Origin: Promethearchaeota archaeon
GTDB lineage: Archaea; Asgardarchaeota; Odinarchaeia; Odinarchaeales; JBHLKK01
Assembly (NCBI GenBank): GCA_048939465.1
Contig: JBHLPL010000104.1
Span: 1 to 6,888, forward strand
DNA length: 6,888 nucleotides
Reading direction: 5' to 3'
In this document: positions 441 to 4,066 of the stretch, piece after piece
Layout: the number at the start of each line of letters is the position of its first letter
How positions within the stretch are numbered: the stretch's first letter is position 1
Notes under the pieces: generated by a model
Seen by the model: only the letters and a program-made list of their open reading frames with translations
Databases searched by the model: none
What the model was told of the DNA's origin: nothing
Made by a program: the position numbers and the translations under genes

Positions 441-1349
441 TTAATGCCCTAAAAGGCTTTCACTCCTTCTTTTGACCTCCTCAAAACTCATCGGAAACTC
501 AGGTCCAGTATACTCAACCATTATGGATGCAGCTGCCGATGCGAAGTAACCAGATCGGCTCACATCGCCGTTCCTTAAGTATTCAAATACAAACGATCCT
601 GCATAGGTATCGCCTGCTCCTGTTGGATCTCGGGCAAGAGTTTTGTACGCAGGAATCTTGATGTTTCTCTTTCCGTCAAATATCACAGAGCCCCTCTCTG
701 CAAGTGTAACTATCCCGACATCTGCACCCCACTCTACAAGCTTTCTTGCGGCCTCCTCCGGCTTTCTTACTCCAGTCATAACAAGGGATTCATGCTCATT
801 TGGCTTTGCAAAGTCTACCAAATTCACAATCTTTTTTGCTTCATCACGGTCACATATACGCTTAATTCTACCACCTTCTCCGATCACTCTGGTGATGCCC
901 TGAGGATCCAAGAATAGAATCGCATCGCTTTCTTCACGTAAAAAATGGACCAAATCGTAGTCCACTTCCTGCAGTATCGGTCCCAGAACAATTGCTTTAG
1001 CATCTAGACACTCTCTGGGAAAGTTCTCAACGGTAATTCTATTTGCTATTCCAAGTACATCAAGCGTTCTGTCGCCTGCTTCGTCGTAGACGAGTTTGAA
1101 ACCTCCAGTTTCCTCAGATATCATCAATCTAGGGATTTCTACACCAAATCTGTCCACATCTTCAACAAATACGTTCTTGAAGTCTTCTCCAATGTATCCA
1201 ACCAGCGCTGCTCTTCCGGTGCCTAGCTTTTTGGCAGCTAAACATGCGTTAGTGCTGCATCCTGACAGAACACGTTTTTTTGTTGACAGGTAAGGAGTTA
1301 TTATAATATCGTATACTGGATTTCCGACGGCGACAAAATCATAGGTCAT
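441..1349 (-). CDS. PfkB/ribokinase-family carbohydrate kinase, possibly myo-inositol kinase
   Basis: C-terminal PfkB signature DPTGAGDTYAG with the catalytic GD, N-terminal VGNPVYD, and AKPNEHE. Starts 11 nt inside the upstream gene, after a GAGGT SD-like element. The family is confident; the substrate is inferred from context. Confidence 0.88.
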   Translation of the reverse strand: MTYDFVAVGNPVYDIIITPYLSTKKRVLSGCSTNACLAAKKLGTGRAALVGYIGEDFKNVFVEDVDRFGVEIPRLMISEETGGFKLVYDEAGDRTLDVLGIANRITVENFPRECLDAKAIVLGPILQEVDYDLVHFLREESDAILFLDPQGITRVIGEGGRIKRICDRDEAKKIVNLVDFAKPNEHESLVMTGVRKPEEAARKLVEWGADVGIVTLAERGSVIFDGKRNIKIPAYKTLARDPTGAGDTYAGSFVFEYLRNGDVSRSGYFASAAASIMVEYTGPEFPMSFEEVKRRSESLLGH

Positions 1350-1974
1350 CTGTTTCTACCTCTGGTTGTCTACTCCCCTCTGTCCTTCTCCACGTATAAA
1401 CGAGACGCTGTATAACTGTTATCTGGGAGAGGACACCAACAAGAATTATAAAGATCTCCAGGATGCTTTGGTTGAGAATATTAAAGGCTGGCCATACGTA
1501 GACTAGTATGATACCGATAATAATTAGGATCAGTTTTTCCTGGCGCTCGGCGATTCCTACGTTACACTTTTCCAAGCCTCCAACAGACTCTGCTTTGGCT
1601 CTAATGAAGCTAGCCATAACCATGCTGAAGAATGCAAAGAATCCCCAGAGCCACCAAACGAAGCCACCAAGAATCAATCCAAGAATGATCAAAAACTCCG
1701 CGTATCTATCAAGAAGATGATCCCAAACAGCTCCGAATCGTGTAGCGGCATTAGTCGCCCTTGCAATCGCGCCGTCCAGCATATCGACGAAACCAGTTAA
1801 CAGAATTAGAATCAGACCCCAAATTAGTGCCCCAAAAGCAAAAAGTATGCAGCAGAGAATACTAATAACGAGGCTTATAGCAGTTGCAGTATTGGGCGTT
1901 AAACCGATCTTGGACAGAGCCCGGCCGACTGGCAACATTGCTCTTTCATATTTCTCTCTGAGTCTCCCTAACAA
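1339..1974 (-). CDS. pgsA: CDP-alcohol phosphatidyltransferase, archaetidylinositol phosphate synthase-like (TTG start)
   Basis: Complete family motif D-x2-D-G-x2-A-R-x8-G-x3-D-x3-D (DMLDGAIARATNAATRFGAVWDHLLD), downstream GIAERQEKL, multiple hydrophobic helices, 211 aa. The AIP synthase assignment is by family resemblance; pgsA is the generic symbol for this family. Confidence 0.85.
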   Translation of the reverse strand: MLGRLREKYERAMLPVGRALSKIGLTPNTATAISLVISILCCILFAFGALIWGLILILLTGFVDMLDGAIARATNAATRFGAVWDHLLDRYAEFLIILGLILGGFVWWLWGFFAFFSMVMASFIRAKAESVGGLEKCNVGIAERQEKLILIIIGIILVYVWPAFNILNQSILEIFIILVGVLSQITVIQRLVYTWRRTEGSRQPEVETDDL

Positions 1975-2014: not shown

Positions 2015-2027
2015 TTTAAACCTTTTG
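2015..2027 (-). promoter_or_regulatory. Putative BRE/TATA promoter of the phosphatidyltransferase-kinase operon
   Basis: Minus strand reads CAAAAGG-TTTAAA, about 40 nt upstream of the TTG at 1974. Confidence 0.6.
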
Positions 2028-2099
2028 CTCGAGTTAGGAAGTTCATCCGTCTTTCGCAGGAAGACCCCCTGCGTTTGCATAGTGATGAATTGCGTCGGG

Positions 2100-2107
2100 T
2101 TTAAATA
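2100..2107 (+). promoter_or_regulatory. Putative TATA box driving the structured leader/ncRNA and probably lysS
   Basis: TTTAAATA matches the archaeal TATA consensus and predicts a start near 2128-2132, where the first hairpin begins. The upstream BRE is weak, so orientation is not certain. Confidence 0.5.
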
Positions 2108-2128
2108 TCTCCTTGGATATTTGAGGTT

Positions 2129-2370
2129 GAGGTCTGTGACCTTGAAGACCTAGAAGGCTATCGAGGTGGGTCGAAAGCACACGTAACGGGCTCCTTGACC
2201 ATGCACTTAGGAGCACACCCGTCCCGCAGTTTGTAGCTGCGTACAGGGGAAGTGAACCAGCCTTCGGCCTCTCCCGGGCGCACCGCGCCGAAAGATCTAT
2301 CAATATTCTGAAGCGAGAGGGAAAAACCCCTTACGAGAGCCAGGGGCAATTCACTAGCGAATTTACCTTC
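2129..2370 (+). ncRNA. Unidentified structured RNA or long 5' leader of lysS
   Basis: 83 of 130 nt are G+C across 2161-2290 by hand count, against roughly 42-47% in sampled lysS lines. At least eight short helices can be drawn, there is no credible ORF, and a TATA box lies about 25 nt upstream. No known family recognised; boundaries approximate. Confidence 0.5.
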
Positions 2371-2388
2371 CAAGTCCAACAAGTCCAA
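2371..2388 (+). repeat. Tandem 9-mer CAAGTCCAA x2
   Basis: Exact copies at 2371-2379 and 2380-2388, followed by a degenerate TCAATCCA. Confidence 0.85.
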
Positions 2389-2416
2389 TCAATCCAGAAA
2401 GGGGGACTGCTATTCG

Positions 2417-4066
2417 ATGGCATATCTTCACTGGCTTGAAGAAATACTTCAAGAACTAATAGATCGAAAAGCCAACCCGGTGGTTTTAAACACAGGCAAA
2501 TCAACAAGCGGAGAAACCCACATAGGGATCTTCCGTGAACTTCTTATTTGTGATTGTCTTGGTCGCCTGCTTGAGAAAATGGACAGTAATTGGAGATTTT
2601 ATTTCATTGCTGATGATTTTGATGCCGCAAAGCATTTTCCAAGTTATGTTCCCAAGGACTTTGACCACTACATAGGTACGCCATTTTCTGATATTCCCTG
2701 CCCCGAGGACCACTGCGAAAGCTATGGGCATCATTATGCGATGAACCTGATCGGCACATTTGATGATTTCGGGATAGACCCGAGAATAATCTGGGCTTCC
2801 AAGCTTTACGACTCTGCAGAGATGAAAGAGGCCGTGCGTATAGCCCTCAAGAATGTGGAACCGATAAGAAAGATCCTAAAAAAATATGTTGCGCCGACGC
2901 TGAGAGAAGAGGAAGTCGAGGATTACCTAATAGAAATGGAGGAGAGATGGCCCGCAACTGTTGTATGTGAGAAATGTGGGAAACTGCAGGCGAAAACAGA
3001 GGGAAGAATTCAACCCAACAGAATTACCTCTTTCGATCCTGCAACCGACAAGATAACCTATTCCTGTCCCGCTTGTGGTTATGAAGGAGAAACAACAATC
3101 GCCAAAGCAAGGATTAAGCTGACTTGGAGAATCGACTGGCCGGCTAAGTGGTTTATCCTACGTGTGACATGCGAACCAGCTGGAAAAGATCACACTGTGA
3201 AGGGAGGAGCGTATGATACAGGATTGGAGATCTGCCAGAAGGTCTACCGATTTGAAGGACCACTGAAGGTAGGTTATGAATGGGTTAGATTTGGTGAGAC
3301 AGACATGAAGACTCATCGAGGAATAACCTTCACGCCGCGTGAATTCCTCCGTATTTGCTCTCCCGAAGTACTCAGATATTTGATTCTACGAACTCACCCC
3401 TCAAAACACATAAGTTTTAGACCGAGACTGCTCGTTCAACTGGTAGACGAATATGATCGATTTGAGAAAATCTACTACAATCTAGAAGAAGCGGACGAGG
3501 AAGAAAAAAGGGAGATAAAATTCCTATATCCTCTATGCCAAGTCAACGAGACGTCTTCCGAGATTCCTAAACGCCTTCCATACAGGTTTGCAGTCATGTT
3601 CTCGCAATTGGAGAATCTACTCACAAAGGAAAAGATACTGGAAAAGGCAACCGAGGTAGTCAAAAAGACCTATCAAATAAGCGAAGTTACCGATGAGATA
3701 ACAAGAAGCATAAAGATGACTCTCCAAAGGGCTGAAGACTGGACAAAATCATACGCTCCTCCCCAATTCTTACTAAACATCCCGAAAGAGGTTACGAACG
3801 AAATAAAGCAAAAGCTAAGTGATAAACAGCGGAAAGGTCTAAAACTTCTCGCAAAAACCTTTCAGGATGGGGATTTGGATGAGGAAGAACTCCAAAACAA
3901 AGTGTTTACTTTAGGAAAGGAAGAGCTGGGAATCGGGGCAAAGAAAATGTTCCAAGCTGTATACTTAGCTCTCATAGGCAAGAAATTCGGTCCAAGACTG
4001 GCCCCCTTTTTGCTTGCGCTAGAACGAAGCTGGGTAATAAAAAGGCTTCTGGATGCAGCGAATTAA
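2417..4066 (+). CDS. lysS: Lysyl-tRNA synthetase, class I
   Basis: HIGH-type motif SGETHIGIFRE, zinc-ribbon CEKC/CPAC, and class I LysRS signatures KLTWRIDWPAKW, EPAGKDHTVKGG, FGPRLAPFL. 549 aa; GGGGG SD-like run at 2401-2405. Confidence 0.97.
   Translation: MAYLHWLEEILQELIDRKANPVVLNTGKSTSGETHIGIFRELLICDCLGRLLEKMDSNWRFYFIADDFDAAKHFPSYVPKDFDHYIGTPFSDIPCPEDHCESYGHHYAMNLIGTFDDFGIDPRIIWASKLYDSAEMKEAVRIALKNVEPIRKILKKYVAPTLREEEVEDYLIEMEERWPATVVCEKCGKLQAKTEGRIQPNRITSFDPATDKITYSCPACGYEGETTIAKARIKLTWRIDWPAKWFILRVTCEPAGKDHTVKGGAYDTGLEICQKVYRFEGPLKVGYEWVRFGETDMKTHRGITFTPREFLRICSPEVLRYLILRTHPSKHISFRPRLLVQLVDEYDRFEKIYYNLEEADEEEKREIKFLYPLCQVNETSSEIPKRLPYRFAVMFSQLENLLTKEKILEKATEVVKKTYQISEVTDEITRSIKMTLQRAEDWTKSYAPPQFLLNIPKEVTNEIKQKLSDKQRKGLKLLAKTFQDGDLDEEELQNKVFTLGKEELGIGAKKMFQAVYLALIGKKFGPRLAPFLLALERSWVIKRLLDAAN

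What the first reader, a model, noticed from the sequence alone, without database searches (positions are those of the whole stretch)
2129..2416. Unassigned GC-rich, helix-dense RNA element feeding into lysS
Seen: about 64% G+C over 2161-2290, TTTAAATA about 25 nt upstream, and no clear oligo(T) terminator or second TATA before the lysS ATG. Drawable helices include AGGTCT/AGACCT (2130-2135/2146-2151), GCTATCGA/TCGAAAGC (2157-2164/2171-2178, one mismatch), ACGGG-CTCCT/AGGAG-CACA bulge-CCCGT (2186-2222), CGCAG/CTGCG (2225-2241), CCTCTC/GAGAGG (2268-2273/2315-2320), GGCGC/GCGCC (2277-2289), CCCCT/AGGGG (2327-2346) and AATTC/GAATT (2348-2363). There are also mutually exclusive alternatives, such as GAAGGCT 2153-2159 pairing with AGCCTTC 2259-2265. 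Established: T-box control of aminoacyl-tRNA synthetases is a bacterial mechanism, and archaeal leaders are usually short. Inference: this is a novel stand-alone ncRNA co-transcribed with lysS, or a cis-regulatory leader responding to lysine or tRNA-Lys.
Basis: partly seen in the sequence, partly recalled or inferred. Interest (0 to 1): 0.75.

Follow-up and report, generated by a model that had tools for sequence, protein, structure and literature searches.

The report
Gene-less mini-transposon upstream of lysS
The "GC-rich structured RNA" in front of the lysyl-tRNA synthetase gene is a decayed, protein-less miniature of a TnpB-type (IS200/IS605) jumping gene that kept the transposon's promoter and guide-RNA scaffold; it is one of about 27 copies in this Asgard archaeal genome, so it is ordinary and not a lysine or tRNA sensor.

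Summary
The letters, the 64% G+C and TTTAAATA are as described, but the stretch folds no better than shuffled sequence. Only four of the nine drawn helices are kept in related copies.

The finding is the 3' two-thirds of a 308-nt insertion, window 2047-2354 (+). This is an internally deleted IS200/IS605-family, tnpB-only element of the PATE/MITE kind. It keeps:
- the left end,
- the tnpB promoter (TTTAAATA, 2100-2107),
- about 25 broken N-terminal codons,
- the last ~58 codons, which are the omega-RNA (guide RNA) scaffold,
- the right-end hairpin.

It sits directly 3' of a TTCAT target motif with no target duplication. The same pgsA-lysS spacer in a congener is 136 nt and lacks it. A covariance model of the scaffold finds 27 copies in this genome and shows compensatory base changes.

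This copy is the most decayed of the 18 compared: 33 of 50 consensus pairs, and a broken left-end hairpin.

The lysine/tRNA-Lys leader idea is not supported. Co-transcription with lysS remains plausible as a by-product of where the element landed. The kind is already published, and this scan has reported the same family elsewhere in this genome.

The parts
1339..1974 (-). CDP-alcohol phosphatidyltransferase gene (pgsA-like), divergent neighbour
   Evidence: Pfam PF01066, E 4.2e-16
2015..2022 (.). TTTTAAAC, a TATA-like box of the native spacer, conserved in the congener. It is a candidate native promoter for pgsA and/or lysS (inference).
   Evidence: Identical in G000 and G001 in alignment A1. 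It lies upstream of the insertion point.
2042..2046 (+). TTCAT, the target/transposon-adjacent motif (TAM) directly 5' of the element
   Evidence: The 5' flank is TTTAT or TTCAT in most of 27 aligned copies. The empty site in G001 reads TTTAT followed by the right flank.
2047..2354 (+). 308-nt gene-less IS200/IS605-family element (PATE/MITE-like, derived from a tnpB-only element)
   Evidence: Sharp ends in multi-copy alignments. nhmmer full-span match C40:2048-2354. Absent from the orthologous spacer of G001.
2065..2084 (+). Left-end subterminal hairpin, degenerate in this copy (5 of 8 pairs)
   Evidence: The family consensus is an 8-bp hairpin of -7 to -15 kcal/mol. This copy gives -1.7 kcal/mol.
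2100..2107 (+). TTTAAATA, the transposon's own TATA-like box (tnpB promoter). The predicted RNA start is about 2127-2131 (inference).
   Evidence: Near-invariant GTTTAAAT block in both subfamilies. About 20 nt upstream of the in-frame TTG (2127) that opens the conserved RSVTLK codons.
2079..2180 (+). Remnant of the TnpB N-terminus (aa 3-36 of the 417-aa relative), with an in-frame TAG at 2151-2153
   Evidence: tblastn alignment, frame +3. blastn match 2052-2146 to the full-length element.
2180..2354 (+). Omega-RNA (TnpB guide RNA) scaffold. It overlaps the remnants of the last ~58 tnpB codons (frames +1 and +2, with a stop).
   Evidence: Covariance model R1: 110.2 bits, E 2.5e-27. Covariation. 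tblastn to aa 364-411.
2327..2346 (+). Right-end subterminal hairpin, which is also the last hairpin of the scaffold
   Evidence: Conserved CCCCTTGC-GAAA-GCTAGGGG hairpin in all copies, similar to the left-end hairpin. Helix 10.
2350..2354 (+). TTCAC, the right terminus (transposon-encoded motif), one base different from the TAM
   Evidence: All copies end in ...AGTTCAC and then diverge. The same terminus is found on the tnpA+tnpB element of G000:C105.
2355..2374 (+). Flank that would be read as the guide of the omega-RNA (inference). It is native lysS leader DNA.
   Evidence: It aligns to the sequence right after TTTAT in the empty site of G001. The guide position follows the published OMEGA/TnpB layout (PMC10691335).
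2401..2406 (+). GGGGGA, a Shine-Dalgarno-like motif of lysS
   Evidence: Conserved in G001 10-15 nt before the ATG
2417..4066 (+). lysS, class I lysyl-tRNA synthetase
   Evidence: Pfam PF01921, E 1e-95

Best explanation
Window 2047-2354 is a non-autonomous, protein-less derivative of an IS200/IS605-family tnpB element, a PATE-like 'mini-transposon'. An internal deletion removed about aa 37-363 of TnpB. It joined the left end (hairpin, promoter, first codons) to the last ~58 codons, which double as the omega-RNA scaffold, and to the right-end hairpin.

Such elements move as single-stranded DNA. They are mobilised by a Y1 transposase (TnpA) supplied in trans, and they insert 3' of a short target motif (here TTYAT) without target duplication. 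The promoter would give an RNA of about 225 nt that ends in the flank. With a matching TnpB supplied in trans, that RNA would guide cleavage of the empty site and so favour retention of the element.

This copy landed in the pgsA-lysS spacer, between the candidate native promoter and the lysS start, pointing towards lysS. It has since decayed: the left-end hairpin is broken and 17 of 50 scaffold pairs are lost. It is most likely an immobile relic whose only present effect, if any, is to lengthen the lysS leader or add transcription into lysS.

Shown: identity, ends, copy number, insertion polymorphism, RNA covariation, decay. Inferred: transcription start, guide function, read-through into lysS.
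For: 1. Full-length relatives. G001:C76 carries a 417-aa ORF with Pfam PF07282 (Cas12f1-like/TnpB TNB domain, E 2.9e-19). G002:C94 carries a frameshifted copy. Both match window 2052-2146 and 2221-2357 with about 1 kb of tnpB in between. tblastn places aa 3-36, 364-380 and 386-411 in three frames with stops.

2. Empty site. The congener's spacer is 136 nt and reads TTTAT directly followed by the homologue of window 2355 onwards. An order-level relative has a 119-nt spacer.

3. Ends. In 27 aligned copies similarity starts right after TTTAT/TTCAT and stops after AGTTCAC. The flanks are unrelated and there is no duplication. The left and right hairpins resemble each other.

4. Copy number. nhmmer finds at least 18 full-span copies in G000. 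Model R1 finds 27 places in G000, 8 and 11 in the congeners and 26 in G018, patchily across the phylum. All 20 copies examined are intergenic.

5. RNA structure.
- 18 sequences: 88.6% of cells paired against 37-53% when partners are slid, and 13 pairs changed on both sides against 6.2 in shuffles.
- 32 sequences: 85.9% paired, with 27 pairs and 104 cells changed on both sides, reached by 0 of 500 shuffles. This second alignment was fitted to the model.
- Subfamilies A and B fold to the same architecture when folded separately.

6. A transposase is available. G000:C105 carries tnpA (PF01797, E 7.5e-37) with tnpB, and its left/right hairpins and ...GTAGTTCAC terminus match the mini-elements.

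7. Decay of this copy. R1 scores 110 bits against about 200 for good copies. It keeps 33 of 50 pairs, the lowest of 18. The left hairpin folds at -1.7 kcal/mol.

8. The kind is described in print: PMC3119063, PMC10055086, PMC10691335.
Against: - No intact TnpB of the matching 417-aa type was found in this 91%-complete assembly. Only fragments and two other TnpB types are present, so a working partner for the RNA is not shown here.
- Copies are only 67-75% alike, so most are old and recent mobility is not shown.
- DNA contigs from three studies all carry the insertion and none shows an empty site.
- Transcription, the RNA's ends and any TnpB binding are untested.
- The second covariation count was made on a model-fitted alignment, which leans towards the structure.
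Confidence: 0.93

Rival explanations
1. Domesticated promoter or leader. After insertion between the native promoter and lysS, the element's own promoter (2100-2107) became the main lysS promoter, or the scaffold became a functional part of the lysS 5' leader. On this reading the copy is kept because lysS expression depends on it. This is compatible with the transposon origin.
For: The element points towards lysS with no oligo-T run before the ATG. No TATA-like box lies within 45 nt of the lysS ATG in G000 or G001, whereas G003 has one there. A second TATA-like stretch just upstream of the insertion point in G001 (TTATTAAAA) is degenerate in G000 (GTTAGGAAG). The insertion is present in contigs from three studies.
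Against: Across 20 copies the orientation relative to the downstream gene is 10 same and 10 opposite, so there is no general promoter-donor pattern. The conserved TTTTAAAC box upstream (2015-2022) is intact and could still drive lysS through the element. No RNA data exist. The copy is decaying in the scaffold, as expected for neutral DNA.
Confidence: 0.15
2. Still-working trans guide cassette. The copy makes a functional omega-RNA that a TnpB encoded elsewhere uses to cut empty TTCAT-plus-guide sites.
For: The promoter box, helices P2b and P3, and most of the right-end hairpin are intact. Stand-alone omega-RNAs are reported to work in trans (PMC10691335; PMC10055086).
Against: It keeps the fewest consensus pairs of 18 copies (33 of 50): P2a 2/6, P5 1/3, P6 1/4, with a 3-nt deletion in the P6 hairpin. 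No intact cognate TnpB was found in the assembly.
Confidence: 0.12
3. lysS-specific cis-regulatory leader that senses lysine or uncharged tRNA-Lys.
For: Position upstream of lysS on the same strand. Structured, GC-rich RNA.
Against: It is absent from the same spacer in a congener. No match to the scaffold model was found next to lysS in G003 or G005. The same sequence family sits next to unrelated genes at about 27 places. There is no Rfam match, including T-box and lysine riboswitch families. Its sequence is explained codon by codon by a tnpB remnant.
Confidence: 0.02
4. A small protein gene on either strand (for example the 76-aa and 86-aa minus-strand ORFs, 2158-2388 and 2043-2303).
For: The ORFs exist in this copy.
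Against: There are no Pfam matches. Other copies match these ORFs only in short pieces, and the longest open frames vary from 47 to 130 aa between copies, so no frame is conserved.
Confidence: 0.01

Closest known systems
PATE-like gene-less IS200/IS605 elements that carry omega-RNAs (Geobacillus stearothermophilus ISGst families; Meers et al. 2023, PMC10055086)
   Same: No protein gene. IS605-type left and right ends. An omega-RNA scaffold is retained. It depends on TnpA and TnpB supplied in trans. Many copies per genome. Target motif on the 5' side and guide taken from the 3' flank.
   Different: The host is an archaeon (Asgard), with a different scaffold sequence that has no Rfam family. An archaeal TATA-type promoter from the tnpB 5' end is retained. 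This copy is decayed, and no cognate TnpB was found in the assembly.
PATEs of Haloquadratum walsbyi and other haloarchaea (Dyall-Smith et al. 2011, PMC3119063)
   Same: Archaeal. No terminal inverted repeats and no target duplication. Near-terminal palindromes like those of IS605-type elements. Origin by core deletion of IS1341-type (tnpB-only) elements. Some keep C-terminal coding remnants (HqIRS71). Copies are heterogeneous.
   Different: That paper predates the guide-RNA function and does not describe a retained RNA scaffold or promoter. Many haloarchaeal PATEs are much shorter, down to 52 bp with the termini only.
Stand-alone omega-RNAs of OMEGA systems (as summarised in Altae-Tran et al. 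2023, PMC10691335)
   Same: Mobilised omega-RNA loci without an adjacent effector or transposase, in genomes that also hold effector-containing loci. They can act in trans.
   Different: Function in trans is not shown here. The matching effector is seen intact only in congeners.
T-box leaders and lysine riboswitches upstream of aminoacyl-tRNA synthetase or lysine genes
   Same: Only the position: a structured RNA upstream of a synthetase gene.
   Different: No Rfam match, not conserved at the locus, dispersed repeat of transposon origin.

Membership tests
IS200/IS605-family non-autonomous element (PATE-like) | Subterminal imperfect palindromes at both ends instead of terminal inverted repeats | tested here: met
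   The family has an 8-bp left hairpin and a similar right hairpin. In this copy the right hairpin is kept (2327-2346) and the left one is degenerate (5 of 8 pairs).
IS200/IS605-family non-autonomous element (PATE-like) | Insertion 3' of a short conserved target motif, without target-site duplication | tested here: met
   TTTAT/TTCAT on the 5' flank of most of 27 copies, with unrelated 3' flanks. The empty site in the congener reads TTTAT plus the right flank.
IS200/IS605-family non-autonomous element (PATE-like) | No intact protein gene; derived from a coding element by internal deletion | tested here: met
   TnpB aa 3-36 and 364-411 only, in three frames with stops. The full-length relatives carry about 1 kb more.
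IS200/IS605-family non-autonomous element (PATE-like) | Several dispersed copies, and a Y1 transposase with matching ends in the genome | tested here: met
   27 model matches in G000. G000:C105 carries tnpA (PF01797) plus tnpB with matching hairpins and the GTAGTTCAC terminus. Actual mobilisation was not tested.
TnpB omega-RNA (reRNA) | The scaffold overlaps the 3' end of tnpB and runs to the right end of the element | tested here: met
   In the full-length G001:C76 element, model R1 covers 3348-3528 (-), while tnpB stops about 11 nt before the right end.
TnpB omega-RNA (reRNA) | Conserved secondary structure supported by compensatory changes | tested here: met
   (0-1 of 500 shuffles reach the observed values; slid controls 37-53% paired). 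Subfamilies A and B folded separately give the same architecture. This copy keeps only 33 of 50 pairs.
TnpB omega-RNA (reRNA) | The RNA is expressed, with a 3' guide of about 16-20 nt from the flank, and is bound by TnpB | not testable with these tools
   No listed run is on record as RNA. A binding or cleavage assay is needed.
T-box leader / lysine riboswitch | Match to the family's covariance model, and conservation upstream of the regulated gene | tested here: not met
   No Rfam match at gathering score or at E up to 10. Absent from the orthologous spacer.

The most novel reading that the evidence does not exclude
The insertion has been co-opted. In this species lysS is now transcribed from the transposon's promoter, or through the omega-RNA scaffold as a ~290-370-nt leader. 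An essential synthetase gene would then depend on, or be modulated by, a transposon-derived guide-RNA cassette, for instance through processing of that leader by a TnpB.
Probability: 0.08. Interest if true: 0.5.

Novelty: new member of a known kind. Interest (0 to 1): 0.15.

Why it matters
It removes a false lead. An apparent archaeal riboswitch or T-box-like leader in front of an aminoacyl-tRNA synthetase gene is a transposon relic.

It also adds one more mapped copy, with exact ends, target motif, empty site and decay state, to a family of guide-RNA-bearing mini-transposons in Asgard archaea. That helps with annotating these genomes, where such repeats mimic structured ncRNAs. It also helps anyone mining compact TnpB and omega-RNA pairs.

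The only locus-specific point of interest is that the element sits between the candidate lysS promoter and the lysS start.

Tried and rejected
- **Rfam:** gathering and E-value scans found nothing relevant. The only rows were SNORD96, mir-1206 and Chlorobi-1 at E 1.5-4.6 on the minus strand over the lysS start, which is noise.
- **tRNA/tmRNA scan:** none found.
- **Single-sequence folding:** not distinguishable from shuffles.
- **RNAalifold on the mixed A+B MAFFT alignment:** only 11 pairs, because gaps misplace the helices. It was replaced by per-subfamily folds and a covariance-model alignment.
- **RNA evidence:** no RNA holder listed among public runs.
- **Empty-site alleles in metagenome contigs:** no joint across 2047-2354 was seen. 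Contigs from three studies bridge the insertion.
- **lysS in congener G002:** not found with this query in that 82%-complete assembly, so only one congener gives the empty site.
- **First literature search** (TnpB, omega RNA, MITE): gave nothing useful.
- **Small-protein reading of the local ORFs:** rejected.
- **RNase P or SRP RNA in a long archaeal spacer:** dropped after Rfam gave no match and the repeat nature became clear.

Full report
**Observation**

The spacer between a divergent CDP-alcohol phosphatidyltransferase gene (1339-1974, minus strand) and class I lysS (2417-4066, plus strand) is 442 nt. G+C of 2161-2290 is 63.8%, against 44.7% for the window, and TTTAAATA lies at 2100-2107.

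The stretch does not fold better than shuffled sequence. The z-score is -0.06 for 2120-2416 on the plus strand, -0.72 on the minus strand, and -1.76 for 2180-2354. Rfam and ARAGORN find nothing.

**It is a dispersed repeat**

A blastn search of the spacer against relatives' genomes showed that about window 2039-2366 recurs at several places in this genome and in two congeners. In G001:C76 and G002:C94 the two halves of the match lie about 1 kb apart.

- Between them is a 417-aa ORF in G001:C76, and a frameshifted version in G002:C94. It has two CxxC pairs and an NRDLNGAINI motif.
- This ORF matches Pfam PF07282, the TNB domain of Cas12f1-like/TnpB proteins, at E 2.9e-19.
- Window 2052-2146 aligns to the promoter region and first codons of this tnpB. 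Window 2221-2357 aligns to its last codons.
- tblastn places TnpB aa 3-36 (frame +3, with a TAG at 2151-2153), aa 364-380 (frame +1) and aa 386-411 (frame +2, with a stop) in the window.

So the finding lies inside an internally deleted tnpB element.

**Exact ends and the empty site**

In the congener G001 the same pgsA-lysS spacer is 136 nt. Its flanks align to the window at 77% identity up to 2030 and again from 2401. The pairwise alignment shows G001 reading TTTAT directly followed by the homologue of window 2355 onwards. An order-level relative (G003) has a 119-nt spacer between the same divergent gene pair.

Alignments of 9 and then 27 copies with their flanks show that similarity begins right after TTTAT or TTCAT and ends after ...AGTTCAC. 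The flanks are unrelated and there is no target duplication. In the window the element is 2047-2354 (308 nt), preceded by TTCAT at 2042-2046.

Both ends carry similar 8-bp hairpins. The consensus is CCCCATGC-ATAA-GCGTGGGG on the left and CCCCTTGC-GAAA-GCTAGGGG on the right. These are the hallmarks of IS200/IS605-family elements and of their gene-less PATE derivatives (PMC3119063).

**Family size and transposase**

- An nhmmer profile finds at least 18 full-span short copies in this genome, plus many left-end-only matches. The copies fall into two subfamilies, A (about 290-315 nt, including this copy) and B (about 345-365 nt).
- All 20 copies examined are intergenic.
- The genome holds one tnpA (Y1 transposase, PF01797, E 7.5e-37) next to a 433-aa tnpB on contig C105. 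The left and right hairpins and the GTAGTTCAC terminus of that element resemble those of the mini-elements, so a transposase that could act in trans is present.
- No intact TnpB of the 417-aa type was found in this 91%-complete assembly. Only fragments and two other TnpB types are present.
- Close homologues of the 417-aa TnpB (68-74% identity) occur in records titled Candidatus Hodarchaeota archaeon and Candidatus Wukongarchaeum yapensis. The congener G001 itself is titled Candidatus Hodarchaeota archaeon.

**The RNA**

The conserved 3' block (window 2180-2354) starts at the codons for the NIGN residues that end the RuvC-III motif of TnpB, and it runs to the right end. That is where TnpB omega-RNA scaffolds lie (PMC10691335).

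Subfamilies A and B, folded separately, give the same architecture:
- a 5' hairpin (P1);
- a long-range helix (P2a/P2b) enclosing a hairpin with a UGU loop (P3);
- a long-range CCUCCC/GGGAGG helix (P4) enclosing a GAAA hairpin;
- the terminal GAAA hairpin, which is the right-end hairpin.

Pair counts support this structure.

| Alignment | Cells paired | Cells paired with partners slid | Pairs changed on both sides | Shuffle control |
|---|---|---|---|---|
| 18 subfamily-A sequences | 88.6% | 37-53% | 13 | mean 6.2; 1 of 500 shuffles reach 13 |
| 32 sequences, model-fitted | 85.9% | 38-52% | 27 (104 cells) | 0 of 500 reach it |

The second count leans towards the structure because the alignment was fitted to the model.

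The covariance model R1 finds 27 places in this genome, 8 and 11 in the congeners, 26 in G018, and scattered matches elsewhere in the phylum. That patchy pattern is typical of a mobile element.

**The promoter**

GTTTAAAT is nearly invariant in both subfamilies, although the sequence around it diverges. It lies about 20 nt upstream of the in-frame TTG (2127) that opens the conserved RSVTLK codons of TnpB. This fits a leaderless archaeal tnpB mRNA and puts the RNA start at about 2127-2131. That start is an inference.

The mini-element is therefore promoter plus scaffold plus right end, and its guide would be read from the flank at 2355 onwards. This layout, and the dependence on TnpA and TnpB in trans, is described for PATE-like elements and stand-alone omega-RNAs (PMC10055086; PMC10691335).

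**State of this copy**

This is the most decayed of the 18 subfamily-A copies.
- R1 scores 110 bits, against about 200 for well-kept copies.
- It keeps 33 of 50 consensus pairs, against 37-50 in the others. P2a is 2/6, P5 is 1/3 and P6 is 1/4.
- It has a 3-nt deletion in the GAAA hairpin.
- Its left-end hairpin keeps 5 of 8 pairs and folds at -1.7 kcal/mol, against -7 to -15 in most copies.

It is probably no longer mobile and probably not a good guide RNA. Contigs from three metagenome studies bridge the insertion with few differences, and none skips it.

**Relation to lysS**

The element points towards lysS, and no oligo-T run follows it. In G000 and G001 there is no TATA-like box within 45 nt of the lysS ATG, unlike in G003. 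The candidate boxes lie upstream of the insertion point: TTTTAAAC at 2015-2022 is conserved in both, and TTATTAAAA is intact only in G001.

If those boxes are the promoters, lysS mRNA in this species either carries the whole element in its leader or starts at the element's promoter. It would be an accident of insertion, not a lysine- or tRNA-sensing device. Orientation relative to the downstream gene is 10 same and 10 opposite over 20 copies, so the family shows no promoter-donor pattern.

- Four correspond to conserved family helices: the proximal part of 2186-2222 (P1), 2225-2241 (P3), CCTCTC/GAGAGG (P4, in a register shifted by 2 nt from the consensus), and 2327-2346 (right-end hairpin).
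- GGCGC/GCGCC (2277-2289) and GCTATCGA/TCGAAAGC are specific to this copy.
- AATTC/GAATT spans the right boundary.
- GAAGGCT/AGCCTTC is not conserved.

**Verdict**

The finding is a real sequence feature, but an ordinary one: a decayed, gene-less IS200/IS605 mini-transposon that keeps the TnpB guide-RNA scaffold. This scan has already reported the same family from other pieces of this genome. I reached the same reading independently before looking those reports up (my stated reading). The kind is published, so this is a new member of a known kind and of low interest.

Noticed in passing
G000:C105:1000-2900 (not in the window): An apparently complete IS605-type element: tnpA (149-aa frame, PF01797) followed by a 433-aa tnpB. 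Its left/right hairpins and GTAGTTCAC terminus resemble those of the mini-elements, but its scaffold region does not match model R1. It is the only Y1 transposase found in the three genomes of the genus.
   Followed up: partly
G000, 20 mini-element copies (coordinates): In 16 of 20 copies, the nearest ORF of 100 aa or more beyond the left end is divergently oriented. The elements therefore tend to sit with the left end towards a gene start, perhaps because the TTTAT target resembles archaeal TATA boxes. ORF calling was crude and no proper test was done.
   Followed up: no
L029-L038 (G000 contigs C138, C89, C69, C10, C137, C77, C106, C24, C39): A second subfamily (B, about 345-365 nt) of the same mini-element. 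It has a different 5' body and an extra hairpin-rich insert in the scaffold, but the same overall fold and the same ends.
   Followed up: partly
L010:1509-1824 (G002:C1) and L008:1509-1824 (G001:C3); L019 (G002:C78) and L026 (G000:C96): Pairs of copies in different species share both flanks, so these look like orthologous insertions older than the species split. That fits the low identity (67-75%) between copies.
   Followed up: no
L010:1852-1971 (-), G002:C1: A weak R1 match (21 bits) lies right beside a mini-element and next to a 384-aa TnpB of another type (G002:C1:13247-13444). A similar weak match lies beside that type's TnpB in G001:C3. The second TnpB type seems to have a distantly related scaffold.
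   Followed up: no
window 2040-2091: Another first-stage note on this window reads this stretch as an H-type pseudoknot between divergent promoters. It is the TAM plus the left end and degenerate left hairpin of the same mini-transposon.
   Followed up: partly
L053, L054: More distant relatives of the 417-aa TnpB (49-56% identity over parts) occur in records titled Bathyarchaeia and Candidatus Methanohalarchaeum thermophilum. The TnpB lineage is therefore not confined to Asgard archaea.
   Followed up: no
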